Shown: positions 33,283-46,256 of the stretch, piece after piece
Layout of the letters: the number at the start of each line of letters is the position of its first letter
Position numbering within the stretch: the stretch's first letter is position 1
NCBI GenBank assembly: GCA_016200265.1
Contig: JACQFE010000006.1
Location: forward strand, 4,112 to 68,111
Source of the DNA: Planctomycetota bacterium
GTDB taxonomy: Bacteria > Planctomycetota > Phycisphaerae > UBA1845
Reading direction: 5' to 3'
DNA: 64,000 bases
The notes under the pieces: generated by a model
The model's database searches: none
Told to the model about the DNA's origin: nothing
What the model saw: only the letters and a program-made list of their open reading frames with translations
Made by a program: the position numbers and the translations under genes

Positions 33283-33426
33283 CATCTTGAGGTCGAAGGA
33301 GACTCTCGACATTTTGAGGTCATAGGAGGCTCTCGACTTTTTGAGGTCGAAGGAGGCTCTTGATATTTTGAGGTCATAGGAGTTTCCCGTAATTCTGAGG
33401 TCGCACAAGGTTTCCGTCATTCTGAG
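33283..33426. repeat. 27-bp tandem array of five units plus a partial sixth
   Basis: TGAG(G/C) recurs at 33288, 33315, 33342, 33369, 33396 and 33423. Confidence 0.85.
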
Positions 33427-33487
33427 CCTTGCTTTAGCAGGGCGAAGAATCTCGATTTTGAGATGCCTCGCTTCACTCAGCATGACA
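33416..33487. repeat. REP-like palindrome (GTCATTCTGAG...GCGAAGAATCTC...GAGATGCCTCG...CTCAGCATGAC)
   Basis: Terminal inverted arms GTCATTCTGAG and CTCAGCATGAC; half copy at 42290-42317. Confidence 0.7.
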
Positions 33488-33617
33488 GCCGCGACTCGAT
33501 GTCGGCTTTTTTCCGAGCCGCGACCGTGAGGGCGGTCCATTCCTGGTTTTCAATGAGCGGCCCGGCGTTCCACAGGGAATCGTCGGGCCGCTTCTCATTT
33601 TGCGATCCGGCAAAGTC

Positions 33618-34691
33618 ATGAAACCGTCCGAATCAGACGAATCGCGCATCGCCGTGTTATCTCACCAAGAACTACTCGTTTGTCCCAAGTGCGATTACGA
33701 CTTGCGCGGGCTCCCGTCCACACGTTGTCCTGAATGTGGGTCGGAATTCGATCGAGCGGAGCTTCGGGATGTAGGACTCGCTCGGGAGTCTGGGTTTTTT
33801 GAGTACTGCTGGCGAAAAACACCGCTCAGATCATTCGTGGGCACATGGACACAAGCCATTCGCCCGAAGGCGTTCTGGAACTGGGTAACACCTACCTGGC
33901 CCTCAAAGCGAAATGCGATCTTGCTTTATGGCGGAATACTCATTGTTGGGACGGTAATTGGTTCATCCATTATGCAATGTTTCTTGCTCTATTGCATGAC
34001 ATATTGGTATCACGGGCGATTCACTCCGCTACTTTCATACCTTCAGCTTCTAATGCCGTATTACCTTATTACGAGCGTAGTGAAACTCATGCCTTGCTTC
34101 GTTGCTGCGGGCATTATTCTTCAACTTTCACAAAGCATTCACCGATCCGGGCTGGGGCGCACCAAGTTCCTGAGATTGGGCGTATATCCTGCGTCCTTCC
34201 TGCCGCTACTTCCTTTGGCAATTCCAGTCCGCATTTTTTCAACGCTGTTCGTTCATGCCAGTCGTCCTCATCCTGAGTGGCGCACCGTTTTTTGGTGGGT
34301 GCTTCCGAATGGAACATGGTCACAGCGCGTGTACGGGCGCATGTTTCCAGTCGATTGGTTTGAGGGACGCTTCGAGTGGTCGAATCCACTTCGAATTACA
34401 ACGCTCTTGGCGGTCGTCGCGCTGATTCTTCCGCTCATTATTCCGCGCGGCTCTGTTGGCAGATTGGTACAAACAATCGGGCTGGTTGTAATAGCGGTTC
34501 TATGGCCCGTCAGTACTCTATACGGGGGCTGGCTCTACTCGCTCTCTTTGGGCGCCACTGCCTACTTTCGAGAGGGAAGGCGCTGGACAATGGGTCTTGC
34601 CAGTGGGTGCATCGGGCTACTATGCCTGTTCGCCATCGATACGCTTTGCGGAGGCTGGACGCTTTATGAAATGATGCGCGTGCTCGGTTGA
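33618..34691 (+). CDS. Membrane protein with N-terminal zinc ribbon
   Basis: CPKCDYDLRGLPSTRCPECG followed by several hydrophobic segments. Confidence 0.75.
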   Translation: MKPSESDESRIAVLSHQELLVCPKCDYDLRGLPSTRCPECGSEFDRAELRDVGLARESGFFEYCWRKTPLRSFVGTWTQAIRPKAFWNWVTPTWPSKRNAILLYGGILIVGTVIGSSIMQCFLLYCMTYWYHGRFTPLLSYLQLLMPYYLITSVVKLMPCFVAAGIILQLSQSIHRSGLGRTKFLRLGVYPASFLPLLPLAIPVRIFSTLFVHASRPHPEWRTVFWWVLPNGTWSQRVYGRMFPVDWFEGRFEWSNPLRITTLLAVVALILPLIIPRGSVGRLVQTIGLVVIAVLWPVSTLYGGWLYSLSLGATAYFREGRRWTMGLASGCIGLLCLFAIDTLCGGWTLYEMMRVLG

Positions 34692-34762
34692 ACCGCTTCT
34701 ACCGTTTGGCCGATTGGCTAATACCAATTCCAGAAATTAATGGCGCGGTTCGGTTTCAGTGA

Positions 34763-34822
34763 GTGCCACTGGTAGCTTGCCTGCCAGTACTGGTACGGGC
34801 GGACAAGCCGCCCATGGCACCC
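34763..34822. repeat. REP-like inverted pair
   Basis: GTGCCACTGGTAGCTTGCCTGCCAGTAC faces an arm whose reverse complement is GTGCCATGGGCGGCTTGTCCGCCCGTAC. Confidence 0.65.
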
Positions 34823-34838
34823 CGGAGGTAGCGCCAAT

Positions 34839-34878
34839 AATTATTGGGATTCGTATAAAATTATTGGGATTCGTATAA
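34839..34878. repeat. Exact 20-bp tandem duplication
   Basis: AATTATTGGGATTCGTATAA twice, overlapping the palindrome CCAATAATTATTGG. Confidence 0.85.
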
Positions 34879-35180
34879 CTTGTGCCGTTTGCAAACTGGG
34901 GACTCAATACCTCCTGCATGTCGTCTGATCTACCTACTCACCATCTCCCCCCGCTCGACATTCGCCAAAAACTCATGAATCACCTCTGACGTTCTTCCTT
35001 CATGCGAACTATGATCTCCGTTTCACCAATCTCCGCCCCATCTGCAAAACCTGCGAACCAAGTTACATCGACGCCCGCTACACGATCGTCGATCATCGTT
35101 TCCGCATTCCTCATTCACAATTCCGCATTCATTTCCGCCATTCGCTCTTGTCTTTTTCAGTCTTCTCACTTCAAACTTCC

Positions 35181-35258
35181 GTCTTTGTCGAAGTGCCACA
35201 CTATGACATTAGTGAAAAAAGTACTTGCCAAACGAACCCATCTGACAGTGTCACTGAA
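35181..35258 (+). repeat. Conserved ~80-bp intergenic element, copy 1
   Basis: TGCCACACTATGACATTAGTGAAAAAAGTACTTGCCAAACGAACCCATCTGACAGTGTCACTGAA aligns without gaps to the reverse complement of 42582-42646. Confidence 0.8.
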
Positions 35259-35357
35259 TACGCGTGCACACAGGCGCTCGATGAATATCGCCGCTCCAGC
35301 GAGCGCCACGGAAGTTATAGATACCGGAGTACGGCACACAATGCACCAATCTAATTC

Positions 35358-35373
35358 CGTTTCACGTGAAACA
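35358..35373. promoter_or_regulatory. parS centromere-like site
   Basis: CGTTTCACGTGAAACA, 15/16 match to the parS consensus TGTTTCACGTGAAACA. Confidence 0.8.
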
Positions 35374-35480
35374 AGGTTTGCATGGCCAGTCCCAATCGGC
35401 AATTGGAAATCGGCAATTTGCAATTCATGCTGCCGGCGGCCCAGGTTGCGCCATTTGCAACCTGGGGACGCGATTCCCTT

Positions 35481-38303
35481 TCACGAAGGACGAAGGCGGT
35501 CACCAAGAAACCGCCCCGTATGGCTCGCACGACAACCGGCAATCGTCTCCGGCGTTCCTTCCGCCACGATGCTCCCGCCGGCGTCGCCGCCTTCCAGGCC
35601 GAGGTCGATCACCCAGTCCGCACACTTGATCACATCGAGATTGTGTTCGATGCAAATCACCGTGTGGCCGCGATCGACGAGGCGATTGAGGAGCGTCAGC
35701 AGGTTTCGTACGTCGGCGAAGTGCAGGCCCGTCGTCGGTTCGTCGAGAATGTACACGATGTGCGTTTCGGCGGATTTGTGGAGTTCCGCGGCGAGCTTGA
35801 CGCGCTGGGCCTCTCCGCCCGAAAGCGTGCTCGACGCCTGCCCAAGCCGCAGATATCCGAGGCCGACATCCTTGAGCGCTTGCAGACGATTCTTGATCCA
35901 CGCGAAATTTTCGAAGAACGCGACGGACTCATCGACGGAAAGATCGAGCACGTCGGCGATGGTTTTCCCGCGATATCGAATTTCGAGCGTCTCGCGGTTG
36001 TATCGCGTGCCGCCGCAAACTTCGCACGGAACGAACACGTCGGGCAGAAAGTGCATGCGAATTCGCTTGACGCCCTGCCCTTCGCACGCTTCGCACCGGC
36101 CGCCCTTGACGTTGAAGCTGAACCGATTCGGGCCATATCCGCGGATTTTCGCTTCGCGCGTTTTCGCGTACAGCTCGCGAACGGCGTTGAATACGCCGAC
36201 AAAGGTCGCGGGGTTGCTTCGTGGCGTTCGGCCAATTGGCGATTGATCAACTTCGACGACGCGGTCAATATTCTTCGCGCCGGTCAATTTTTCGAATGCA
36301 CCGGGCTTGGGTCCGCCGAGATTGAGGTTCCGCCGCAACGCTCGCAGCAAAACCTGATTCACGAGTGTGCTCTTGCCGCTGCCGGACACGCCGGTCACGG
36401 CGATGAGACAGCCGAGCGGAAATCGCACGGTGATGTTCTTGAGATTGTTGGCAGATGCTCCATGGACTTCGATCGCGTTCGACCAGTTCGGCTGGCGGCG
36501 CTGGTCCGGACTGGCAAGGCCGCTCTCGCCGCGAAGAAATCGAGCGGTGATCGAATTCGGAGACGCGATGAACAATTCGTATGGTCCGCTCGCGACGAGG
36601 TTCCCTCCTGCTTCACCCGCACCCGGGCCGATGTCGATCAAATAATCCGCGTCGCGCATGATCTCTTCATCGTGCTCGACGACGATGACCGTGTTGTCCA
36701 TGCTCGCGAGGCGCTTCAGAATGCTCGAAAGCTTCTTCGTGTCGCGCGGATGCAGGCCGATCGTGGGCTCGTCGAGGACGTAACAAATGCCGGAAAGTTG
36801 GCCGCCGATTTGCGTGGCAAGCCGAATCCGCTGGAACTCGCCGCCCGAGAGCGTCACGCTGCCGCGATCCAGGCCGAGATATTCGACACCGACTTCGCAC
36901 AAAAATTCAAGCCGGTTTCGCAGCTCTTTGAGCAAAGGTTCGGCGATGGTCCCCCGCTCTCCAATGAATCGCAAACCCGCGACGAATTCTTTCGCGCTCG
37001 CGATCGTCATCCGTGCAGCTTCGCCAATGCTCCGGCCTTCGATCTTGACACACAGGGCGCTTCGATTCAACCGCGCTCCATTGCAAACAGGGCATGGGTT
37101 TTCGGTAAGAAAGGCGTACAGTCTTTCCTTGGCCGATTCCGATTCGGTCGTTCGCCATCGACGCAGAAGATTCGGCATCACGCCTTCAAACCCGCCGCCG
37201 AATTTTTTAGCATCTTCGTCAGATGTGCCGTGAAGGAGAATTTGGCGCTGCGCCTCGTGCAGGTTGCGAAATGGTGCGTCGGGAAGAAAACCAAATCGCG
37301 TGCAATAATCATCAATCATTCGGGCATATTCGGCGTCAAGTTTTCGGCCTTGACGACGCCACGCGGCGATTGCTCCCTCCTTCAGCGAGGCATTCGGATT
37401 CGGCACAACGAGGTCCAGGTCAAATTCCAACTTCGTGCCCAGGCCATGACACTCCGGGCATGCGCCTTGAATGGAGTTGAAGCTGAACAATTGCGGGCTG
37501 ATCTCGTCGAGTCTGACTTCTGGATGGACAGGACACGCCAGCACTGTGTTGTAGGTCGCGTCGGACCATTGGCCCTCTTCACCCGCGCTCGATGTCATCA
37601 CGCGGCCACTGGCGAGACGCGCGGCAAGCTCGACGCTATCGGCCACCCTTTGGCGGACATCGGATTTCATGATGAGCCGATCGACGACTACCTCAATCGT
37701 GTGTTTCGCATTTGCGGCGAGCGTTGGCACGTCTTCAAGCGTCACCACTTCGCCATCAATTCTAGCCCGAACATAACCATCTTTGATCAGTCGTTCGATC
37801 GCATCCTTGTGCTGGCCTCGTTGTGCGGCGATCAGCGGAGCGAGAATCAACATGCGCTGACCGTCGGGCCGGGACATTTCCGCATCGACAATTTGGGCGA
37901 TGCTCTGCCGCTCAATCAGCCGATCGCACAACCAGCAATGCGGCTCGCCGGCGCGGGCAAAAAGCACGCGCAGGTAGTCGTGGAGTTCCGTGGTCGTTGC
38001 GACGGTGGAGCGCGGACCGGCGGACGCTCCCCGCTGCTCGATCGCAATCGTGGGGCTCAGCCCCTCGATGCGATCCACATCGGGCCGCTGCATTCGTTCG
38101 AGAAATTGCCGTGCGTAGGCCGAAAGCGATTCGACATATTTCCGTTGCCCTTCGGCGTAGATCGTGTCGAATGCGAGCGAGCTTTTCCCCGATCCGGACA
38201 GACCGGTGATGACCGTCATGGCCCCGCGCGGAATCTCGAAATTGATGTTCTTAAGATTGTGCTGTCGAGCGCCGAAGACGCGGATGAACGAGCGATACGA
38301 CAT
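35481..38303 (-). CDS. uvrA: Excinuclease ABC subunit A
   Basis: GARQHNLKN, GLSGSGKSS, LSGGEFQRIRLA, GVSGSGKST, LSGGEAQRVKLA and Zn fingers. ATG 38303 gives ~940 aa. Confidence 0.97.
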   Translation of the reverse strand: MSYRSFIRVFGARQHNLKNINFEIPRGAMTVITGLSGSGKSSLAFDTIYAEGQRKYVESLSAYARQFLERMQRPDVDRIEGLSPTIAIEQRGASAGPRSTVATTTELHDYLRVLFARAGEPHCWLCDRLIERQSIAQIVDAEMSRPDGQRMLILAPLIAAQRGQHKDAIERLIKDGYVRARIDGEVVTLEDVPTLAANAKHTIEVVVDRLIMKSDVRQRVADSVELAARLASGRVMTSSAGEEGQWSDATYNTVLACPVHPEVRLDEISPQLFSFNSIQGACPECHGLGTKLEFDLDLVVPNPNASLKEGAIAAWRRQGRKLDAEYARMIDDYCTRFGFLPDAPFRNLHEAQRQILLHGTSDEDAKKFGGGFEGVMPNLLRRWRTTESESAKERLYAFLTENPCPVCNGARLNRSALCVKIEGRSIGEAARMTIASAKEFVAGLRFIGERGTIAEPLLKELRNRLEFLCEVGVEYLGLDRGSVTLSGGEFQRIRLATQIGGQLSGICYVLDEPTIGLHPRDTKKLSSILKRLASMDNTVIVVEHDEEIMRDADYLIDIGPGAGEAGGNLVASGPYELFIASPNSITARFLRGESGLASPDQRRQPNWSNAIEVHGASANNLKNITVRFPLGCLIAVTGVSGSGKSTLVNQVLLRALRRNLNLGGPKPGAFEKLTGAKNIDRVVEVDQSPIGRTPRSNPATFVGVFNAVRELYAKTREAKIRGYGPNRFSFNVKGGRCEACEGQGVKRIRMHFLPDVFVPCEVCGGTRYNRETLEIRYRGKTIADVLDLSVDESVAFFENFAWIKNRLQALKDVGLGYLRLGQASSTLSGGEAQRVKLAAELHKSAETHIVYILDEPTTGLHFADVRNLLTLLNRLVDRGHTVICIEHNLDVIKCADWVIDLGLEGGDAGGSIVAEGTPETIAGCRASHTGRFLGDRLRPS

Positions 38304-38359
38304 GGTAATTTGATACCCGCGATCGATTCGGGCGGCCAGCCGGTGGCAAAACCACGCTG

Positions 38360-38387
38360 TTGAATGTAAATTCTGACGTGCTACAAT
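38360..38387 (+). promoter_or_regulatory. Putative promoter for rpmB-accD
   Basis: TTGAAT-N16-TACAAT with an extended -10 TG. Confidence 0.5.
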
Positions 38388-38454
38388 GCTTGGCTCGATA
38401 GGGTTGTGGACGAGGTCGGGCCGGAAAGGCCCAATTTCAGGGTTAGGGTGCATC

Positions 38455-38730
38455 ATGGCAAGAGTTTGTCATTTTACTGGGAAGAAGACACGTTCGGGAA
38501 ATACCGTCGCCCGTCGCGGCAAGGCGAAGTATTTGGGCGGCGTCGGTCGCAAGACGACAGGGATCACCAAGCGAAAATTCAAGCCGAACGTGCAGCGGGT
38601 TCGCGCTGTCGTCGACGGCAAAGTCTGTCGCATCAAAATTTCGACGAAGGCCATCAAGATGGGTTTCCTCGTGAAGCCGCAGGCGCGGAATTATGCCGCT
38701 GCGGATGCGTCCGCCGCCCAAGTGAATTAG
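38455..38730 (+). CDS. rpmB: 50S ribosomal protein L28
   Basis: MARVCHFTGKK...GN...TKRKFKPNVQ. Confidence 0.95.
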   Translation: MARVCHFTGKKTRSGNTVARRGKAKYLGGVGRKTTGITKRKFKPNVQRVRAVVDGKVCRIKISTKAIKMGFLVKPQARNYAAADASAAQVN

Positions 38731-38779
38731 GAATTCGCCGCCTCGTCCCACTTTCTCTTCAGGGCTTTGATTTCCAATC

Positions 38780-39610
38780 ATGGATGAGCCACGCAAAGCT
38801 ACACGCCCGGAAGACCGTCCGGGAGTTCCGCCGGGACTCTGGACTCGCTGCGACAAGTGCGAGCACATGGTCTACGAAAAGGAAGTTGTCGAGAAACTCC
38901 ACGTCTGCCCGGAATGCGGGCATCACCGTCGCGTCGATGCGAGAACGAGGATCGAGCAGATTTGCGATCCGGGCACATTTGAAGAATTCGACAAAGACCT
39001 CCGCTCCACCGATCCGCTGAATTTCACCGATCGAATTCCCTATATCGAGCGGCTTCAACGCGAGCAGGAAAAAACCGGCGAGACGGAGGCCGTCATCACC
39101 GGTAGAGGTTTCATTCGCGGACGCGCGACGATCCTCGGCGTGATGAATCCGAATTTCATCATGGCCAGCATGGGCGCGGTGGTCGGCGAGAAGATTACGC
39201 GGGCGATTGAACGCGCCATCGAGGAAAATTTGCCGCTGGTCATCGTGACCGCGTCGGGCGGAGCACGAATGCAGGAAGGAATGGTCTCGCTGGTGCAGAT
39301 GGCCAAGACTTCGGCGGCCTTGGCGCGGCTGGATGACGCCGGCGGACTGTACGTTGTGGTGGCCACCGATCCGACGACGGCTGGCGTTGCGGCGAGTTTC
39401 GCGAGCCTGGGCGACGTGATTTTGGCGGAACCGAAGGCGATGATTGGATTCGCGGGTCCGCGCGTGATCGCAAACACAATCAATGCCGAACTTCCCGAGG
39501 GTTTTCAAACAGCCGAATTCATGCTCGAACACGGCTTCATTGACCGCATAGTGCCCCGCGCCGATCTTCGCCGCGAGATCGCACGTATCATCGACTATTG
39601 CGGGAAATAG
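38780..39610 (+). CDS. accD: Acetyl-CoA carboxylase carboxyltransferase beta subunit
   Basis: GLWTRCDKC...CPECG Zn ribbon, SMGAVVGEK, SGGARMQEG and IGFAGPRVI. Confidence 0.96.
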   Translation: MDEPRKATRPEDRPGVPPGLWTRCDKCEHMVYEKEVVEKLHVCPECGHHRRVDARTRIEQICDPGTFEEFDKDLRSTDPLNFTDRIPYIERLQREQEKTGETEAVITGRGFIRGRATILGVMNPNFIMASMGAVVGEKITRAIERAIEENLPLVIVTASGGARMQEGMVSLVQMAKTSAALARLDDAGGLYVVVATDPTTAGVAASFASLGDVILAEPKAMIGFAGPRVIANTINAELPEGFQTAEFMLEHGFIDRIVPRADLRREIARIIDYCGK

Positions 39611-39614
39611 GAAA

Positions 39615-40058
39615 ATGAATCTCACCGGTATTACACCGATTTTGAATGTTTCAGATGTGCCTGCGAGCCTCGCGTGGTTCGAGAAGCTTGGCTGGAAACG
39701 GTGCTGGACGTACAACAATTCGGGACCGATCGACGGGGCGGCGGATCGAAACGATGTCGGACCCGCAGGGTTCACGGTCGTCGCCAGCGGCGAATGCGAG
39801 ATTTTTCTTTGTCAAAATGGTCAAGGCTCGCGCGGCGCTCCCATGCCCCGAAACATCGGCGACAATGATGACACCGGCGGTGTCTGGATGAGCTGGTGGG
39901 TCTGCACGCCCGCCGAAGTTGATGCAGCGCATGCGCTGGCGCTCAAGCACGGAATGACAGTGGTTTGGCCTCCGACGGATGAACCCTGGGGTAGCCGCGA
40001 ATGCCGGATTTGCCATCCTGACGGACATACGTTTCGCGTATCCGCTCCCCTGCCCTGA
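39615..40058 (+). CDS. VOC/glyoxalase-bleomycin resistance family protein
   Basis: TPILNVSDV...WFEKLGW and PTDEPWGSRE...PDGH. Confidence 0.85.
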   Translation: MNLTGITPILNVSDVPASLAWFEKLGWKRCWTYNNSGPIDGAADRNDVGPAGFTVVASGECEIFLCQNGQGSRGAPMPRNIGDNDDTGGVWMSWWVCTPAEVDAAHALALKHGMTVVWPPTDEPWGSRECRICHPDGHTFRVSAPLP

Positions 40059-40599
40059 GCTGCTGTCGCTGAAAAATTCGCTTTTTTACCCACAGGCGCA
40101 TCGTGGGGTGAATGGTCGACCGACTCCAAGAAGGAGTTGGCGCCACTCGATCAGTGCGGCGGCGCGGATTTCCACCGGAGACGCAAGTGCGTTGCAGCGA
40201 CTGATTCATACCAACGCCAATGGGCGACAAAGAGTTTTCCGAAACGCTCAGGGCGAACGACCTTTGCCCCTGCAGATCAGGCAAGTGCTTTCAAGAAATG
40301 CCGCCAATCCACCGGTCGCTCCGGCGGCGTGAATCTCCGCTACAAATGAATCCTTATTTATCCACTTGAGATTGCAAGGAATATCGAATTCGGCACATCT
40401 GAAGGAAATGGAACGGGTTCCTCGCGCTCAATCGAATCGGGGGAATAATGATTATGGCGGCGCGTGATACGGATGCCTATCGATGCGCGGTCAATTGATC
40501 GCGGCCTCGGGCGAAAGGGTAACACGGCTATCGGCTCAGGGGACAGGCTGATAGACAAACCGTTGGATCATTGTCCACCTGGATAAAGGAGCAATTTGT

Positions 40600-41130
40600 A
40601 TGGAAAAAAATAGAGAGACTGTCGAAAACGCAATTGTAGTTGATCGGAGTGGAATTGCCGGAGGCATGGGCTGGAAATCGATGCGTCGGTTCATTGCTCT
40701 TGGATCGCTCATCGTCATCGGGCTTTCAATTCCCGGCCAGTCGAAGCTGGGGTTCGCCGCTCAGGGAGAGCCTAATGGCGCCGCCACTCAGATGCCCGCT
40801 TTCTACGATGGCAAGTTGTTCACCGTCAACATGAAAGAGATGCCCAACTCCGACCCCCTAATCGGTCAAAACGAGAGCATCAACACGATCTACGCCTCGA
40901 ACGACCTGGACGATGAACAGGATTTCATTCCCGTGCTCGATGCCATCCAGGGCGACGGATTTAATCCCCTATGGCATCAAGTCCTCATCGTCTTCAATGC
41001 GGGGTTTACGCCTCATCAGTTCCTTTCTGATACGGACGTCGAAGACGCGGCCGCTGGAGCCAATCCTGAAATCACCCTGGTCGTGACCGATGAGGTTTAT
41101 CGTTGTTCGGTTGTAGGCACGAAAAAATAG
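40600..41130 (+). CDS. Hypothetical secreted protein
   Basis: AAGGAG RBS, a hydrophobic signal-like segment and a downstream terminator. Start could be 40681. Confidence 0.65.
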   Translation: MEKNRETVENAIVVDRSGIAGGMGWKSMRRFIALGSLIVIGLSIPGQSKLGFAAQGEPNGAATQMPAFYDGKLFTVNMKEMPNSDPLIGQNESINTIYASNDLDDEQDFIPVLDAIQGDGFNPLWHQVLIVFNAGFTPHQFLSDTDVEDAAAGANPEITLVVTDEVYRCSVVGTKK

Positions 41131-41196
41131 ACCATGGAACCATGAACCGCCCCGGGGCAAACGGGGAACCATATTCCAGGCCATACTCTCCAAACT

Positions 41197-41224
41197 GAAC
41201 GCCGCACGTGCGGCGTTCTTTTTT
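41197..41224 (+). terminator. Rho-independent terminator
   Basis: Perfect palindrome GAACGCCGCACGTGCGGCGTTC followed by T6. Confidence 0.8.
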
Positions 41225-41354
41225 GCCTTGCTTTTACAACAAAGTCGTAGGTAGGATGCCAAACCTTTCCGCCGACCGCGATGAGTGTATGATTGAGCCT
41301 TCGGCCCGCGAGTGTGCGTCTCGCTACGGCGTTCAGCGAATTGGAGGAGTGACC

Positions 41355-42116
41355 ATGCGAACAAGAACGAAGATTGTAGGAATTGCAGGTTTTTGTGGAC
41401 TTTTCGTCGCGATGGCGATGTGCGCGGAAGAGCCGAGTACGGCGACGAAGGACAAGCCCGATCCCAAGGCGATCGTGCAGAAGTCGGCCGAGGCGATCAG
41501 CAAACTCAAAGTCGTGTCCTACGACCTTGAGTACAAAGTGTCCGGATTTTTCGAGATGTGGGCTCCGAACTTGTCCGGGCCGGTGGTGATGGGTAAAGAA
41601 TCGCCGGATCACGCGAAACGGTTCTCCTGCAAGCTGAAGTTTCAAAAGGCCGGATCGAGTGATGCAACCGAAGTGACCGCGGGTGCAGACGGTACGACGT
41701 ACTACTTCATCGATGACAAGACCAAGACAGTGCATGCGGACATCGATTCGCAGGTGCTTGGCAAGAACGGCGACACGATCAGTATGACGTTGATACGCGA
41801 ATTTGGGATGGCCAAGCCGTTCGAGGATGCGCTCAAGAGTGGCGAAATGAAATACGTTCGCGAGCAAACGGTGGACGGTCACGATTGCCACGTCATCTCT
41901 TTCAAGTCGGCCGTCACCATGCCGGAGATGGACTGGTATATTTCGAAGACTGATTACCTGCCGCGCGGCACGCGCTTTGCGATGAAAAACCAGGGCAGCG
42001 ACGGCGCCGGTGAGGCCATCATCCACAACCTCAAGGTCGATCCCAAGCTCGACAAAGATCCGTTCGCGCTGGTCGTGCCGGAGGGATACAAGCGGACCGA
42101 CGAATTCGCGAAGTAA
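41355..42116 (+). CDS. Secreted LolA-like (DUF2092-type) protein
   Basis: GGAGGAG RBS, signal peptide, VDGHDCHVI, WYISKTDYLPR and C-terminal F.L.VPEG. Confidence 0.65.
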   Translation: MRTRTKIVGIAGFCGLFVAMAMCAEEPSTATKDKPDPKAIVQKSAEAISKLKVVSYDLEYKVSGFFEMWAPNLSGPVVMGKESPDHAKRFSCKLKFQKAGSSDATEVTAGADGTTYYFIDDKTKTVHADIDSQVLGKNGDTISMTLIREFGMAKPFEDALKSGEMKYVREQTVDGHDCHVISFKSAVTMPEMDWYISKTDYLPRGTRFAMKNQGSDGAGEAIIHNLKVDPKLDKDPFALVVPEGYKRTDEFAK

Positions 42117-42118
42117 CT

Positions 42119-42317
42119 CCGAGCCGTCTCGTTCACGGGACGGGTTTTTCCCGAGCCGCGCCCGCCATCCGAACCCCAAGCGCAAGCGCGGGGCTCTTTT
42201 TCCCGAGCCGCGCCCGTAAGGAAGCGGGAAAAGCGTAACCGCAGATGACGCAGATTTGCGCCGATTTTATTGGCATTGTGCATGATGTCGTCATTCTGAG
42301 CGTTAGCGAAGAATCTC
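42119..42317. repeat. Cluster of REP-like elements
   Basis: CCGAGCCG-led units at 42119, 42151 and 42202 (GAGCCGCGCCCGTAAGGAAGCGG), related to 33515-33535 and 46454-46476; GTCATTCTGAG...GAAGAATCTC at 42290. Confidence 0.7.
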
Positions 42318-42391
42318 CTTTCCGAGCCAAGACCACGTGGTAGCGAAAAAAAGCCGATCCGGGGATGGCACAGATTTGGTGCCGCAAAACT

Positions 42392-42407
42392 CGTTTCACG
42401 TGAAACA
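42392..42407. promoter_or_regulatory. parS centromere-like site
   Basis: CGTTTCACGTGAAACA. Confidence 0.8.
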
Positions 42408-42580
42408 ATATTTCGATAGGCAACAGTCAACAGTACCGCAGGGTACGTTGATAACTTGCGCGGCGCTTGATGAATTGGCGATTTTCGTCGAGCGCTGTGA
42501 TTTTCCATCTCGTTCAATCCGTCCCCCACCTTCGCTTTGCGAAGATGGGCCGCCCGACGTCGCGCGCGATTGTACGGGCA

Positions 42581-42658
42581 TTTCAGTGACACTTTGAGAT
42601 GGGTTCGTTTGGAAAGTATTTTTTTCACGAGTGTCATTGTGTGGCATTTCAAGAAGAC
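42581..42658 (-). repeat. Conserved ~80-bp intergenic element, copy 2 (inverted)
   Basis: Minus strand reads TGCCACACAATGACACTCGTGAAAAAAATACTTTCCAAACGAACCCATCTCAAAGTGTCACTGAA. Confidence 0.8.
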
Positions 42659-43166
42659 TGAAGAGCAAAGAGAGAAGATCGAAAAAACACGGAAAATGCA
42701 GCCCAGCGGCGAGGGATCGTGCGAGGGGTAACGGCGGATTTCGTAGATGGGCACGGGTCGCGCGATGGGAAAAGCGGAAATCGGGCGAGCGACGGGGCCA
42801 GGAAGCGGCGAAGGGATTAATTCGATGGCAAGAGCATGTCGTCACGAAGTAATAACTTCGCGGGTGGTTGTCGAAAAAATGAAATCGGGCGAGCGCGGCA
42901 CGACAGGACGAAACGTCAAAACGTCGACACGTCAAGAAATCAAAAGCAGCAACGACTCTTCCCCAAGCGGGTCGGGGAAGTCTTTTCAAGACGTGCTGCC
43001 GATCGAATGGCCGGTTTCGGCGGCGTAAATCGTAAGAATTATTCCAGAGAATCGTCTCAGTGGAACGCCGCGAAAACGGCGTTCTTTTGTTTCCGGGAAA
43101 GCTCTCCAAGATTTGGGAATTTTGTGTTATAATGCCTGAGGTTCCATTGAGGGGGAGGGTGGTTGT

Positions 43167-46100
43167 ATGATTCGGGCTCATCGGTTTTTCCTCATTGTTG
43201 CACTTCTATCGGTTTCCATCGCAAGAGCGCAAAATGAGGCACCCCCGTTGAATGTAAATCCCGGGGCTCTTGAGAAGCCGGCCAGAGACCCGTGGCTTCC
43301 GCGAACGGCCCCATCACCGACGGCGGGCTCGCCGCACTGCGGACCATGGGAGCGCGGGCCGTTTCGAAGCATCCAGGTGAATGTGGATTCTCAAGGCTGC
43401 GATATCGTTGGTGATGCGGCCAACGAGCCGTCGATCGCAATCGATCCGACGAATCCTGATCGGATCGTAATCGGATGGCGCCAATTCGACTCGATTGCAT
43501 CCGATTTTCGACAGCATGGATATGCATACAGTCATGATGGCGGAGAGACGTGGACATTTCCGGGATCGCTGGCGCCGGGCCAGTTTGGAAGCGACCCCGT
43601 GCTTGCCTCGGACCCAAGCGGGAACTTCTTCTACTTCGGGCTTGACGAAAACTTACAAGGTCAACTATTCAAGTCTCAAGACGCCGGAATTACATGGAGC
43701 GAACCGACAAGGATATACGCTTGTGACAAACCGTGGATGACGATCGACCAAGGAAGCGCTGCGGGCAAGGGCAATATCTACGCTTCATGGCGTGCGGACA
43801 TACACTGTGTCGGAGAAGCCGGCTTGTTTGCCCGATCATTCGATGCGGGTGCGACGTTCAAGTATTGGGGCCAGATCGCTCTCTACCTTGGCACAATGGC
43901 CGTTGGGTCGGACGGCACCGTCTACAATTCTTCTGCTGACGGGAGCATCACCAAGATAACCAACGCTGTCAATCCAGCGGCGACATCACCTTCGGTTACA
44001 GTTCTAGGCACTGCGTTTTCCAAGTCGTGTTCCATTGGCGGAATCAATGGGGATGGACTGACTTGTCAATCCTGGGTTGCATTGGACCCTGTCGATGGAC
44101 CCAACAAAGACACCGTATATGCGCTCATCTCTCCATTCGACGGCGTTTATTTCGCAAAGCGAACGCCGGGGAGCAGCGCTTGGTCCGGCATGCGGACTAT
44201 TAATACTGAAAAGCCCAACACAGCCTATTGGTTTGGGACCATGTCCGTGGCGCCGAACGGACGCATCGACGTAATCTGGAATGAATCGAGCCAAAGCACG
44301 ACGGTGATGTATTCGTACTCGGCGGATCGCGGAGACCATTGGACAACACCGATTCCGGTGACGCCTCAATTCTACAAATTCGCGGGCATCCCCAATGGGC
44401 AAAACAAGATCGGTGATTATTACCACATGGTGTCGCGCAATGAGGCCGCGTACCTGGCCTACGCTGCTACTTTTAATGGAGGTGAAGACATCTATTTGCT
44501 GAAGATCCCTCCGGACTGCAACGCGAATGGAGTTCTCGACGCTGACGAAACGAGTCTCGGATTGGCCCCGGACTGCGACGGCAATTTGGTTCCGGATGAA
44601 TGCGATCCGGATTGTGACGGCAATGGGATTCCTGACACCTGCGATTTGAACGAATTCCGCCTGCGGGATTGCAACCACAATCTCATCCCGGACCAATGCG
44701 AGAGTTGCCCCTCGATTGATCGCGTGGACTGCAACGGGAATTGCAGGCTGGATTCCCTTGATCTTTCGGGGGCCGGAGGGGTTCAAAAGTTTGTAGGTGG
44801 ATTCCTGGTGCCCGAAGACATCGTGGCAAGCGTGCCTCCGTATCCGCCCGGGTATTATATGGCTGATCGCGACGCCGAGGCCGTGATTCGAATCAAGCCG
44901 GATGGGAGCACGGAGGTGTTTGCCCAAGGTTTCTTTCCCACTGGTGTCTTATTCGTACCCGACGGATTCAATGGCAAAGGGCCGCAACTCCTTGCGATTT
45001 CTCAGTCAGGCGCTTGTATTTCGCAAATCAGCCCGACGGGTGAAGTGACGCCCATTCCAAGCATCGGTGGATGCCTGGGCGGAGTCTATGTGGGTTCGGA
45101 AATCGGCGGCCCCTACGCCGGACGAGTGATTGTCACAACCTACTATGACAACGGCTTGTACGCGGTGAATTCAAGCGGCGGATACGAGCTGATCGCACGT
45201 GCGCCAAGTGAGGGTTTCTTTTTTGGAACTATCGTGCCTTCGGGCTTCGGAAATTATGCGAACCATCTGTTCGTCGGCGAAGCAAATTGGGACCGTATTT
45301 GGGACTTGAATTTGCATTGGGGGGATTTTCGCGCAGTTCTCGACATGCGGTTCGCGGGCGTACGGCAGATTGCATTTACGCCCTCGGGATGGGGAGCGTG
45401 TCTGGATCCGGAACTCCAGGATTCACCCGCTATGCTGGTGTCCGTCGACGCCGGATCGATTCAGGCCGTCACGCCCAGTGGACGCATTGTCGCATCGCTT
45501 TCCAAGGGACCATCGGGAGCGGCAATCAACCCGCGCGGGTTATTGATCCAAGGACATTCGTTGTTTTTTTCAGATCTGCTTGGCAAAAGCGTTCTGCAGG
45601 CGACATCGGACGATTTTGGACTGACCAATTGCAATGGGAATTCCAAGCCAGATGTTTGCGAAGTCATAGCCGGAAGCGCATCTGATTGCAATGGCAACAT
45701 GATTCTTGATGGCTGCGAACTAACCCTCAACGACTGCAATCACAACGGCATCCACGACGCCTGCGAAATCCGAAGTGGATCAGGCACGGACTGCGACGAT
45801 TCCCATGTACTCGACTCGTGCGAACTTCCGGGGCACGATTGTAATCAGAATCAGATTTATGATGCATGCGAAACGGGCGAGACGTTGGAAGACTGCAATC
45901 ACGACACAATACCTGACCAATGTCAAATCGATTTCAGTTGCCCTCCCATCGATCCTGATTGTCCATGTGACGCGGATTGCGATGGGGTGACGAACTGGGA
46001 GGACATATGCCCTTGCACGCCGCGTGGACTGCCGGTCCTCAGTGACGGGCGAGCCACAGGCGATTTTCTCGGCGACTGCGTTGTGGATCTCTTGGATTTC

Positions 46101-46256
46101 AACGCATTTGTAGGGCGCTATTTACATCGCGGTGGGCCAGGGGTCAAATTGAGCGCATCGCAGAGTTTTGATTTCGATAGAGACGGAGATGTCGATTTGC
46201 ACGACTATCAGAGCTTCCTTCTCGCGTTTGAGGCCTTTGAACAACAAGGGCCGTGA
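43167..46256 (+). CDS. Large secreted protein: BNR/sialidase-like propeller, DCNxNG repeats, second propeller and C-terminal dockerin-like domain
   Basis: Signal peptide; Asp-boxes SHDGGETW, SQDAGITW and SADRGDHW; many DCNxNxxxDxC repeats; GDFLGDCVVDLLDF...DFDRDGDVDLHDY. Extended -10 TGtTATAAT at 43125. Confidence 0.8.
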   Translation: MIRAHRFFLIVALLSVSIARAQNEAPPLNVNPGALEKPARDPWLPRTAPSPTAGSPHCGPWERGPFRSIQVNVDSQGCDIVGDAANEPSIAIDPTNPDRIVIGWRQFDSIASDFRQHGYAYSHDGGETWTFPGSLAPGQFGSDPVLASDPSGNFFYFGLDENLQGQLFKSQDAGITWSEPTRIYACDKPWMTIDQGSAAGKGNIYASWRADIHCVGEAGLFARSFDAGATFKYWGQIALYLGTMAVGSDGTVYNSSADGSITKITNAVNPAATSPSVTVLGTAFSKSCSIGGINGDGLTCQSWVALDPVDGPNKDTVYALISPFDGVYFAKRTPGSSAWSGMRTINTEKPNTAYWFGTMSVAPNGRIDVIWNESSQSTTVMYSYSADRGDHWTTPIPVTPQFYKFAGIPNGQNKIGDYYHMVSRNEAAYLAYAATFNGGEDIYLLKIPPDCNANGVLDADETSLGLAPDCDGNLVPDECDPDCDGNGIPDTCDLNEFRLRDCNHNLIPDQCESCPSIDRVDCNGNCRLDSLDLSGAGGVQKFVGGFLVPEDIVASVPPYPPGYYMADRDAEAVIRIKPDGSTEVFAQGFFPTGVLFVPDGFNGKGPQLLAISQSGACISQISPTGEVTPIPSIGGCLGGVYVGSEIGGPYAGRVIVTTYYDNGLYAVNSSGGYELIARAPSEGFFFGTIVPSGFGNYANHLFVGEANWDRIWDLNLHWGDFRAVLDMRFAGVRQIAFTPSGWGACLDPELQDSPAMLVSVDAGSIQAVTPSGRIVASLSKGPSGAAINPRGLLIQGHSLFFSDLLGKSVLQATSDDFGLTNCNGNSKPDVCEVIAGSASDCNGNMILDGCELTLNDCNHNGIHDACEIRSGSGTDCDDSHVLDSCELPGHDCNQNQIYDACETGETLEDCNHDTIPDQCQIDFSCPPIDPDCPCDADCDGVTNWEDICPCTPRGLPVLSDGRATGDFLGDCVVDLLDFNAFVGRYLHRGGPGVKLSASQSFDFDRDGDVDLHDYQSFLLAFEAFEQQGP

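What the first reader, a model, noticed from the sequence alone, without database searches (positions are those of the whole stretch)
35181..42658. Twice-repeated module: pyrimidine-rich leader, conserved ~80-bp element, then parS
Seen: two inverted copies (35181-35258 on +, 42581-42658 on -) of an element with core CCAAACGAACCCATCT. Each is preceded by a C/T-rich tract and followed ~100 or ~175 bp downstream by a parS site, and the sequence between element and parS is not conserved. Within the element, TGACA(C/T)T and AGTGTCA are complementary, and the C/T difference keeps a G-U pair. Inference: an unrecognised parS-associated cis-element (site for a second partition or nucleoid protein) or a structured RNA. 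This is notable because planctomycetes lack FtsZ and their chromosome segregation is poorly understood.
Basis: partly seen in the sequence, partly recalled or inferred. Interest (0 to 1): 0.7.

Follow-up and report, generated by a model that had tools for sequence, protein, structure and literature searches.

The report
Dispersed mosaic repeat carrying parS sites
The two inverted elements are copies of a 48-member intergenic repeat, and the real oddity is that this uncultured planctomycete carries its chromosome-partition site parS about fifty times, scattered over the genome, instead of once or twice next to parB.

Summary
The inverted pair is real: 74 nt, 86% complementary. It is 2 of 48 copies of a ~57-66-nt core in this genome, all intergenic. 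Each core follows a pyrimidine-rich tract of degenerate heptamer repeats. One of several alternative modules comes after it. In both window copies the next module is a conserved hairpin segment, then parS, so the spacer is not unconserved. The proposed stem fails: its middle pair is broken in 30 of 48 copies and shows no covariation. Rfam has no match. Nine of 48 cores have parS 130-205 nt downstream against about 0.04 expected. That link belongs to this genome. Three other Phycisphaerae genomes hold 16-35 cores and 3-7 parS, and none lie within 1 kb of each other. The stronger result concerns parS. This genome has 52 near-perfect sites at 32 intergenic loci on 28 contigs. The 330 other Planctomycetota genomes have 0-13, mostly 0-2 beside parB. 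The sites stay perfect while their flanks diverge. Verdict: an undescribed mosaic repeat, not a parS-specific element or an RNA, plus an unprecedented parS amplification.

The parts
35095..35191 (+). Pyrimidine-rich tract of degenerate heptamer repeats upstream of core A
   Evidence: TRF finds period 7 (TTCCGCA) at 35100-35130. Over the 48 copies, lag-7 self-identity is 0.45 against 0.25 in random genome 70-mers. C+T is 0.76 here.
35192..35248 (+). Core A. It has an AGTGCCA-N5-TGACAYT imperfect palindrome, an A-run, and a CCAAACGAACCCAT-type block.
   Evidence: One of 48 genome copies.
35249..35318 (+). Hairpin module A: GTCACTGAAT lead, GCGCTCGA...CGAGCGCC palindrome, AAGTTAT
   Evidence: It aligns with 12 other copies that follow a core, and with the same module beside parS pairs that have no core.
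35358..35373 (.). parS A (one mismatch, at the outermost base)
35392..35427 (+). Second heptamer tract (CAATCGG type) after parS A
   Evidence: Read. Repeated elsewhere in the genome.
35440..35466 (.). CCCAGGTTGC...GCAACCTGGG hairpin module just beyond the uvrA stop codon
   Evidence: Similar modules follow other cores.
35481..38456 (-). uvrA, convergent with composite A
   Evidence: Pfam UvrA_inter and UvrA_DNA-bind.
42392..42407 (.). parS B
42451..42496 (-). Hairpin module B
42504..42580 (-). Insert of about 75 nt in copy B, between core and hairpin module. It holds a further repeat module (CCCATCTTCGC...GCGAAGGTGGG hairpin at 42525-42549).
   Evidence: The same hairpin follows the core at G000:C69:49954.
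42592..42648 (-). Core B
42649..42695 (-). Pyrimidine-rich heptamer tract upstream of core B
43167..46256 (+). BNR/Asp-box protein gene, divergent from composite B. It belongs to a 10-gene family, 7 of which have a parS cassette on their 5' side.
   Evidence: Its own extended -10 (TGTTATAAT) and Shine-Dalgarno sequence are read.

Best explanation
The two arms are members of a lineage-restricted, non-coding, dispersed intergenic repeat.

SHOWN. The core of about 57-66 nt always follows a pyrimidine-rich tract of degenerate heptamer repeats. One of several interchangeable modules follows it. The intergenic regions of this genome are mosaics of such modules, in the manner of BIME or BOX elements. 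In the window, both copies are the same composite: heptamers, core, hairpin module, parS, heptamers. The core is not a parS accessory site and not a structured sense RNA. It sits near parS here only because, in this one genome, parS with its immediate flanks has itself become a module. That module has multiplied from the native cluster upstream of parB to about 32 intergenic loci.

INFERRED. Modules are copied and reshuffled by recombination or template switching at the short tandem heptamer arrays that bound them. They are also copied by duplication of whole gene-plus-flank units, as in the BNR family. The parS 16-mers are kept perfect by selection for ParB binding. ParB therefore most likely loads at many dispersed sites.

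The core itself most likely persists as a selfish or neutral repeat. Its one recurrent structural feature is a hairpin plus U-run on the antisense strand, which could terminate or stabilise transcripts.
For: - Iterated nhmmer finds 48 copies, and a sequence-only covariance model (CM) finds the same 48.
- All 48 are intergenic, with no fixed orientation to neighbouring genes. The downstream gene is opposite in 25 and same-strand in 21. The upstream gene is same-strand in 29 and opposite in 17.
- Heptamer periodicity and pyrimidine bias are family-wide. Lag-7 identity is 0.45. C+T is at least 0.65 in 34 of 48.
- Alternative downstream modules are visible. Both window intergenic regions are tiled by other repeat families.
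- The composite with the hairpin module occurs 13 times, 9 of them with parS.
- The same hairpin module and heptamers flank parS pairs that have no core.
- The core is multi-copy in three other Phycisphaerae genomes (35, 25 and 16 copies) without parS amplification (3, 7 and 3 sites) and without adjacency.
- Neighbours of 20 of the 35 G031 cores are not orthologous to neighbours of G000 cores.
- None of 80 metagenomic uvrA loci (at most 67% identical) has a parS. None of the closest 10 has a core.
- There are 52 parS sites with at most 1 mismatch, against 0-2 in 29 of 30 relatives and 0-13 in 300 phylum genomes.
- The mismatch spectrum is 36/16/3, then background (19 against 17 in the control at 3 mismatches).
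- parS columns are 97-100% identical, against 73-76% in the spacer and 61-71% in the flanks.
- The BNR paralog loci are only 68-89% identical over 0.4-1.9 kb, yet their parS sites stay near-perfect (at most one mismatch, at an outermost base).
- An intact ParB (N-terminal, HTH and C-terminal domains) with 4 perfect parS upstream, and SMC, are present.
Against: - No mobilising enzyme, terminal inverted repeat or target-site duplication was found, so how copies spread is inferred.
- The core's strong sequence conservation across four species-level genomes is more than a purely neutral repeat needs. It could reflect a protein-binding function that I could not identify.
- Nine cores at a fixed distance and orientation from parS is a real enrichment.
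- The genome is a draft of 80 contigs, so positions relative to oriC are unknown.
- No RNA or ChIP data could be consulted.
- Gene calls behind the context counts come from my own crude caller. It missed at least one real-looking gene, at window 33600-34691.
Confidence: 0.7

Rival explanations
1. One reading: the core is a cis-acting site for a second partition or nucleoid protein that works together with parS.
For: Nine of 48 cores have parS 130-205 nt downstream in the same orientation, against about 0.04 expected. The core has two conserved blocks whose spacing is kept within 1 nt between genomes although the linker differs. That pattern fits a bipartite protein site.
Against: 39 of 48 cores have no parS within 400 nt, and 23 of 32 parS loci have no core. 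The native parS cluster at parB has none. In G031, G008 and G032 there are 76 cores and 13 parS, with none within 1 kb of each other. Distance to parS varies through inserted modules, such as the 75-nt insert in copy B.
Confidence: 0.08
2. The core encodes a structured small RNA on the sense strand, closed by the TGACAYT/AGTGTCA stem.
For: The stem forms in the two window copies and in about 18 copies that carry GTGTCAC.
Against: The middle pair is broken in 30 of 48 copies. Covariation is no higher than in shuffles (42 of 500 reach it). The RNAalifold consensus is -0.97 kcal/mol with 0 compensatory pairs. Sense z-scores in 8 copies run from -1.65 to +0.88. Rfam gives no match at gathering or at E<=1. 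The scan finds no promoter-like site on the core's sense strand in either window copy. One-base indels between copies rule out a peptide.
Confidence: 0.04
3. The core's main role lies on the antisense strand. A hairpin (CAGAUG-GGUU-CGUUUG, extendable by ACUUUC/GAAAGU) followed by a U-run acts as an intrinsic terminator or an RNA-stabilising end.
For: The scan calls a terminator-like site on the antisense strand of copy A. Antisense z-scores in 8 copies average about -1.7, and 4 of 8 are at or below -2.0. The inner five pairs are kept in 92-100% of 48 copies and in 93-100% of 14 G031 copies, with G-U to A-U changes only. The A-run, which reads as a U-run on the antisense strand, is kept in G031 although its sequence differs.
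Against: The stem has only 2-3 G-C pairs and 3 G-U pairs. No compensatory double changes occur. A gene whose 3' end faces the antisense terminator is present in only 25 of 46 cases, which is no enrichment. A terminator does not need this degree of sequence conservation. The same bases also score as a weak promoter in copy B.
Confidence: 0.12
4. The core is a REP-like element copied by a RAYT-type Y1 (HUH) transposase that recognises the AGTGCCA-N5-TGACAYT imperfect palindrome.
For: The genome's only strong Y1_Tnp gene (150 aa, HUH motif, E 1e-26) has a core 350 nt upstream. By my estimate the chance of that is about 1%. The imperfect palindrome with a fixed C-A mismatch is present in 44 of 48 copies. 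G031 has three head-to-head doublets, resembling REPINs.
Against: The core lies on one side of the gene only. None of 8 Y1 loci in G008, G017 and G031 has a core within about 1.5 kb. G017 holds the 76%-identical ortholog and no cores. G032 has 16 cores and no homolog was found. The best-conserved part of the core is not the palindrome.
Confidence: 0.1

Closest known systems
   Same: They are short non-coding modules found only between genes, in tens of copies. Modules are joined in variable combinations and orientations, and some are hairpin-forming.
   Different: Sequence similarity could not be tested. The core is not mainly a palindrome. Modules are bounded by degenerate heptamer arrays. 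One module is the chromosomal centromere parS. No cognate RAYT link was found.
STRR heptamer repeats of heterocystous cyanobacteria, and the intergenic TAACTGA heptamer repeats of Beggiatoaceae (PMC4679880, seen only as title and abstract in the search listing)
   Same: They are tandem heptanucleotide arrays confined to intergenic DNA.
   Different: The arrays here are degenerate and of several unit types (TTCnnnC, ATTCCGC, TTGCCTn, ATCTGCG). They are strand-biased relative to an adjacent 57-nt core.
Canonical chromosomal ParABS centromeres. The review PMC7333895 (passages read) gives 1 site in Xanthomonas campestris and up to 20-23 near the origin in Streptomyces coelicolor and Listeria innocua.
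   Same: The 16-bp palindrome is the same. An intact ParB and SMC are encoded. The native cluster lies directly upstream of parB, as in at least 15 relatives.
   Different: There are 52 sites at 32 loci on 28 contigs, which cannot fit in less than 47.7% of the assembly. The sites are embedded in a stereotyped repeat cassette, often as pairs 31-32 bp apart.
Noc and its NBS sites in Bacillus subtilis (from my own knowledge; not tested here)
   Same: It is a ParB-family system with dozens of palindromic sites spread over the chromosome.
   Different: The sites here are perfect parS, not a diverged variant. No Noc-like paralog was identified. The three extra ParB-like genes look like mobile-element genes.

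Membership tests
REP/REPIN-RAYT system | Short imperfect palindrome present in many intergenic copies | tested here: met
   AGTGCCA-N5-TGACAYT, with 83.6% of cells paired and a fixed C-A mismatch in 44 of 48. All 48 copies are intergenic.
REP/REPIN-RAYT system | Cognate Y1 (RAYT) gene flanked by the repeats, co-occurring with them across genomes | tested here: not met
   One core lies 350 nt upstream of the G000 Y1 gene, on one side only. None of 8 Y1 loci in G008, G017 and G031 has one. G017 has the ortholog and no cores.
MITE | Terminal inverted repeats bounding each copy | tested here: not met
   Within 34000-44000 the only long inverted repeats are the two cores and the two parS regions. 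No local inverted repeats frame either composite. Copies end at different modules.
MITE | Target-site duplications, and an autonomous parent element with a transposase | not tested
   No empty-site comparison was possible. The closest uvrA relatives are at most 67% identical.
Rfam RNA families | Match to a curated covariance model | tested here: not met
   The whole window at gathering score gives only 16S rRNA. Seven core loci at E<=1 give only an unrelated tRNA.
Structured non-coding RNA (general) | Conserved base pairs with compensatory changes, and folding energy beyond shuffles | tested here: not met
   (sense strand). The antisense strand is inconclusive.
Chromosomal parS/ParB centromere | 16-bp palindrome TGTTNCACGTGAAACA, and a ParB with an HTH domain | tested here: met
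   36 perfect and 16 one-mismatch sites. ParB_N, HTH_ParB and ParB_C are found in one 346-aa protein.
Chromosomal parS/ParB centromere | Few sites, clustered near parB and oriC | tested here: not met
   32 loci on 28 contigs, with a minimal contiguous span of 2.17 of 4.56 Mb. Relatives have 0-2 sites next to parB.
Chromosomal parS/ParB centromere | ParB actually binds and spreads from the sites | not testable with these tools
   This needs ChIP-seq or in-vitro binding. The inference of binding rests on sequence constraint.
Intrinsic terminator (antisense strand of core) | G+C-rich hairpin followed by a U-run, at the 3' ends of genes | tested here: inconclusive
   A hairpin plus U-run is present. 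The stem has only 2-3 G-C pairs, and a gene 3' end faces it in 25 of 46 cases.

The most novel reading that the evidence does not exclude
In this Phycisphaerae lineage the chromosomal centromere has escaped its origin-proximal home. parS, packaged in a repeat cassette, has multiplied to about 32 loci spread over at least half of the chromosome. Selection keeps it perfect. ParB (and through it SMC loading or local silencing, for example of the BNR-family genes, 7 of 10 of which carry the cassette upstream) would then act genome-wide rather than as a single centromere. This would be a natural counter-example to the rule that extra parS sites are tolerated only near the origin.
Probability: 0.4. 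Interest if true: 0.85.

Novelty: new variant of a known kind. Interest (0 to 1): 0.6.

Why it matters

What is not ordinary is that one module of this mosaic is the partition site parS. The review read gives the known range as 1 to about 23 sites, clustered near the origin. It also asks why parS sites cluster. It reports that a second parS site is tolerated only in part of the Pseudomonas aeruginosa and Caulobacter crescentus chromosomes; the passage shown was cut before it said which part. That tolerance is confined to the origin region is my recollection.

A genome with 52 constrained sites at 32 dispersed loci offers a natural experiment, if it is confirmed by a closed assembly and ParB binding data. 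It bears on what happens to ParB clamps, SMC loading and arm alignment when loading sites are everywhere. The group concerned divides without FtsZ.

It also shows one way that transcription-factor-like sites can spread through a genome by riding on repeats.

Tried and rejected
- Promoter reading of the core. No sigma-70-like site lies on the sense strand of either window copy. A weak antisense match (TTGAGA-17-TATTTT) appears in copy B only, and by eye it is not kept in G031. A sigma-54 motif was considered by eye and the -12 element is absent.
- Peptide reading. An ATG lies in the core, but one-base indels between copies break the frame.
- Replication polarity. Core orientation agrees with the local GC-skew sign in 17 of 36 cases, and cassette orientation in 10 of 20.
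- RAYT link: see the rival explanations. The GCCCTCCGGGC hairpin beside the Y1 gene has only 3 copies in the genome.
- Orthologous-position test against G031. Only weak partial hits of 22-43% identity were found. Twenty of the 35 G031 cores were examined.
- uvrA-locus comparison in metagenomes. The best relatives are only 64-67% identical, so no empty-site test was possible. None of the 80 loci has a parS, and none of the closest 10 has a core.
- Assembly redundancy as the source of the many parS loci. Rejected: the longest similarities between loci are 1.9 kb at 75% and 1.5 kb at 88%, all within the BNR paralog family.
- RNA data. No RNA holder was listed for window 33500-39500, so nothing could be laid.
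- Earlier notes of this scan, searched by sequence and by words, showed nothing on this element or on parS.
- Literature. Searches found no paper on parS amplification, or on these repeats, in Planctomycetota.


Full report
**Observation.**
- The pair is real. The arms are 35185-35258 (+) and 42582-42655 (-), 74 nt and 86% complementary. The 16-mer core occurs exactly twice in the window, against 0.02 expected.
- One-mismatch parS sites lie at 35358-35373 and 42392-42407.
- Between the arms lie uvrA (-), accD, a glyoxalase-fold gene and a DUF2092-like gene. A BNR-repeat gene starts at 43167.
- Each element points towards the 3' end of a convergent gene.
- Rfam at gathering score finds only the 16S rRNA gene in the window.

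**The element is a 48-copy family.**
- BLAST against the window's own assembly (G000: 4.56 Mb, 80 contigs, 94% complete) gave 40 scored matches.
- Iterated nhmmer converged on 48 copies. A sequence-only covariance model (CM) built from their alignment recovers the same 48.
- My own codon-usage gene caller found 3133 genes covering 80.5% of the assembly. By its calls, all 48 copies are intergenic.
- The copies have no fixed orientation to their neighbours. The downstream gene is opposite in 25 and same-strand in 21. The upstream gene is same-strand in 29 and opposite in 17.
- Convergent spacers hold 15 of the 44 copies that have called genes on both sides, although they make up 16% of all spacers.
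- Orientation does not follow GC skew: 17 of 36 agree.

**Anatomy.**
- In register, the conserved core runs from AGTGCCA-N5-TGACAYT, through an A-run and a short T-rich stretch, to a CCAAACGAACCCAT(C/T)TGAAAG block.
- Upstream, the 70 nt average 69% C+T, and 34 of 48 copies reach at least 65%. Lag-7 and lag-14 self-identity are 0.45 and 0.39, against 0.25 for random genomic 70-mers.
- Downstream, copies fall into classes that carry different modules.
- Thirteen copies, including both window copies, continue into a hairpin module: a GCGCTCGA...TCGAGCGCC palindrome followed by AAGTTAT. Nine of the 13 then reach a parS.
- Copy B has an extra insert of about 75 nt between core and module, and the insert is itself another repeat module. 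This explains the different distances to parS.
- Both intergenic regions are tiled by further repeat families.

**RNA test.**
- Its middle pair is broken in 30 of 48 copies.
- Overall pairing is 79.8%, against a shuffled mean of 79.4%.
- RNAalifold gives -0.97 kcal/mol with no compensatory pair.
- The 3' arm of the stem belongs to the hairpin module rather than to the core. It changes with the downstream class, and a similar lead sequence precedes that module at loci that have no core.
- Sense-strand z-scores in 8 copies run from -1.65 to +0.88.
- Antisense z-scores average about -1.7. There is a recurrent weak hairpin followed by a U-run, but no compensatory change.
- No Rfam match appears at E<=1 on seven loci.

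**Association with parS.**
- Nine of 48 cores have a parS 130-205 nt downstream of the core motif. One of these sites has two mismatches.
- My estimate of the chance expectation is 48 x 76 x 55 / 4.56 Mb, or about 0.04. The enrichment is therefore real.
- However, 39 cores have no parS within 400 nt. Also, 23 of the 32 intergenic parS loci have no core.

**Other genomes.**
- An exact 21-mer scan of one genome per species found the core in two other metagenome-assembled genomes, labelled Planctomycetota and Phycisphaerales.
- The model counts 35, 25 and 16 copies in G031, G008 and G032, and none in G017.
- At E<=1e-4, only G008 among 30 relatives has copies.
- The same three genomes have 3, 7 and 3 parS sites. 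By the coordinates, none lies within 1 kb of a core.
- Neighbours of 20 of the 35 G031 cores are not orthologs of G000 core neighbours.
- None of 80 metagenomic uvrA loci (at most 67% identical) carries a parS. None of the closest ten carries a core.
- The core is thus a clade-restricted dispersed repeat whose positions turn over.

**parS itself is amplified.**
- G000 has 55 sites with at most 2 mismatches (36, 16 and 3 for 0, 1 and 2 mismatches). They lie on 28 contigs.
- They group into 33 loci. One of these is a two-mismatch site inside a gene and is probably chance.
- The 30 relatives have 0-2 sites, except G008 with 7.
- In at least 15 relatives a site lies within 2 kb of parB on the same contig.
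- In 300 further Planctomycetota genomes the maximum is 13, in one genome; the next highest is 6.
- G000 keeps the ancestral arrangement too: an intact ParB with four perfect parS 65-280 bp upstream. SMC is also present.
- The other loci share a stereotyped, oriented cassette. It runs: hairpin module, about 45-55 nt, CCAAA, parS, a spacer of 15-16 nt with a TTTCGCGAAA-like centre, a second parS, then ATCTGCG heptamers. Sixteen pairs are spaced 31-33 bp apart.
- The contigs that bear parS total 2.62 Mb. Even if they were contiguous, the zone would span at least 2.17 Mb, which is 47.7% of the assembly.

**Constraint on parS.**
- Beyond two mismatches the count falls to background: 19 against 17 at three mismatches, and 137 against 127 at four, compared with the reversed pattern.
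- parS columns are 97-100% identical. The spacer is 73-76% identical and the flanks 61-71%.
- The longest similarities between parS loci are diverged paralogs (68-89% identical over 0.4-1.9 kb), not assembly duplicates.
- From this I infer selection for binding, most simply by the encoded ParB.

**Part of the spread was by duplication of gene units.**
- A family of ten secreted BNR/Asp-box proteins has a parS cassette on the 5' side of seven members. One of the seven is the window's gene at 43167, which is 39% identical to another family member over 515 residues. Three members have a core just past their 3' end.
- G008 has a smaller cassette family of its own, with paired sites and the same GAGTTTGGCCGGG flank.

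**Mobilisation.**
- No terminal inverted repeats frame the copies.
- The only strong Y1 (IS200/RAYT-like) gene in G000 has a core 350 nt upstream.
- However, none of 8 Y1 loci in G008, G017 and G031 has one. G017 has the 76%-identical ortholog and no cores.
- I therefore infer, without proof, that modules are copied by recombination or template switching at the heptamer arrays that bound them, and by segmental duplication.

**Context from the scan and from papers.**
- Earlier notes on this genome describe short tandem repeats inflating its RNase P RNA and compare them with cyanobacterial STRRs. My periodicity measurement agrees with that habit.
- The ParABS review PMC7333895 (passages read) gives 1 to 20-23 origin-proximal parS sites as the known range.
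- Four literature searches found nothing on dispersed parS or on these repeats in Planctomycetota.
- No RNA run was listed.

**Limits.**
- The genome is a draft, so positions relative to oriC are unknown.
- The gene caller is crude.
- Model E-values are rough.
- Counts from the genome search depend on a loose first filter.
- There are no binding or expression data.

Noticed in passing
G000 genome-wide; in the window 35358-35373 and 42392-42407: There are 52 parS sites with at most 1 mismatch at 32 intergenic loci on 28 contigs. Sixteen are pairs 31-33 bp apart. Thirty relatives have 0-7 and 300 phylum genomes have 0-13. The sites stay perfect while their flanks diverge.
   Followed up: yes
window 43167-46256, and G000 C52, C53, C68, C67, C27, C45, C7, C10, C31: In a ten-member family of secreted BNR/Asp-box proteins, seven members have a parS cassette upstream of the promoter. 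Three have a core just past the 3' end. This could mean ParB-dependent regulation or co-duplication.
   Followed up: partly
G000:C9:50367-52037, C30:47958-49712, C41:166235-167914: Three ParB_N plus weak HTH_ParB paralogs of 572-584 aa are stronger matches than any secondary ParB-like hit in 30 relatives. They sit beside ParA-like, restriction-like and very large genes, so they probably belong to integrated mobile elements.
   Followed up: partly
window 34718-34860, 33412-33493, 42197-42228, 42240-42275: Other intergenic repeat families occur here, each with roughly 15 to more than 25 genome copies by short-word BLAST. One is a module of about 140 nt at 34718-34860. A perfect tandem 20-mer lies at 34839-34878.
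   Followed up: no
G000:C10:23220-23672 (L081:1421-1873): A single strong IS200/RAYT-like Y1 transposase gene (150 aa, HUH motif). A core lies 350 nt upstream, and two CGCCCTCCGGGCGAA hairpins lie downstream.
   Followed up: yes
window 33600-34691 (+): This 363-aa ORF has an N-terminal CxxC...CxxC zinc-ribbon motif and hydrophobic stretches. There is no significant Pfam match, and my gene caller missed it. It is probably a real membrane protein gene, which would make the left intergenic region 34692-35480.
   Followed up: no
G286 (same phylum, another family): This genome has 13 parS sites with at most 1 mismatch, the second-highest count among 331 genomes. It may be an independent smaller amplification.
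   Followed up: no
G008 loci L192-L198: G008 has its own repeated parS cassette, with paired TGTTCCACGTG(A/G)AACA sites. Some share the GAGTTTGGCCGGG flank with G000, and others have a CGTTTGTAACAA flank.
   Followed up: partly
G032 loci L202-L204: The three perfect parS sites of this genome appear to lie inside sequence that looks coding, not in repeat cassettes.
   Followed up: no
G032 contig starts (for example C228:4-40 and C365:4-40) and G031 C97, C201, C278: Many contigs of the fragmented relatives begin or end inside the core. The repeat or its adjacent tandem arrays therefore break short-read assemblies, and copy numbers there are lower bounds.
   Followed up: no
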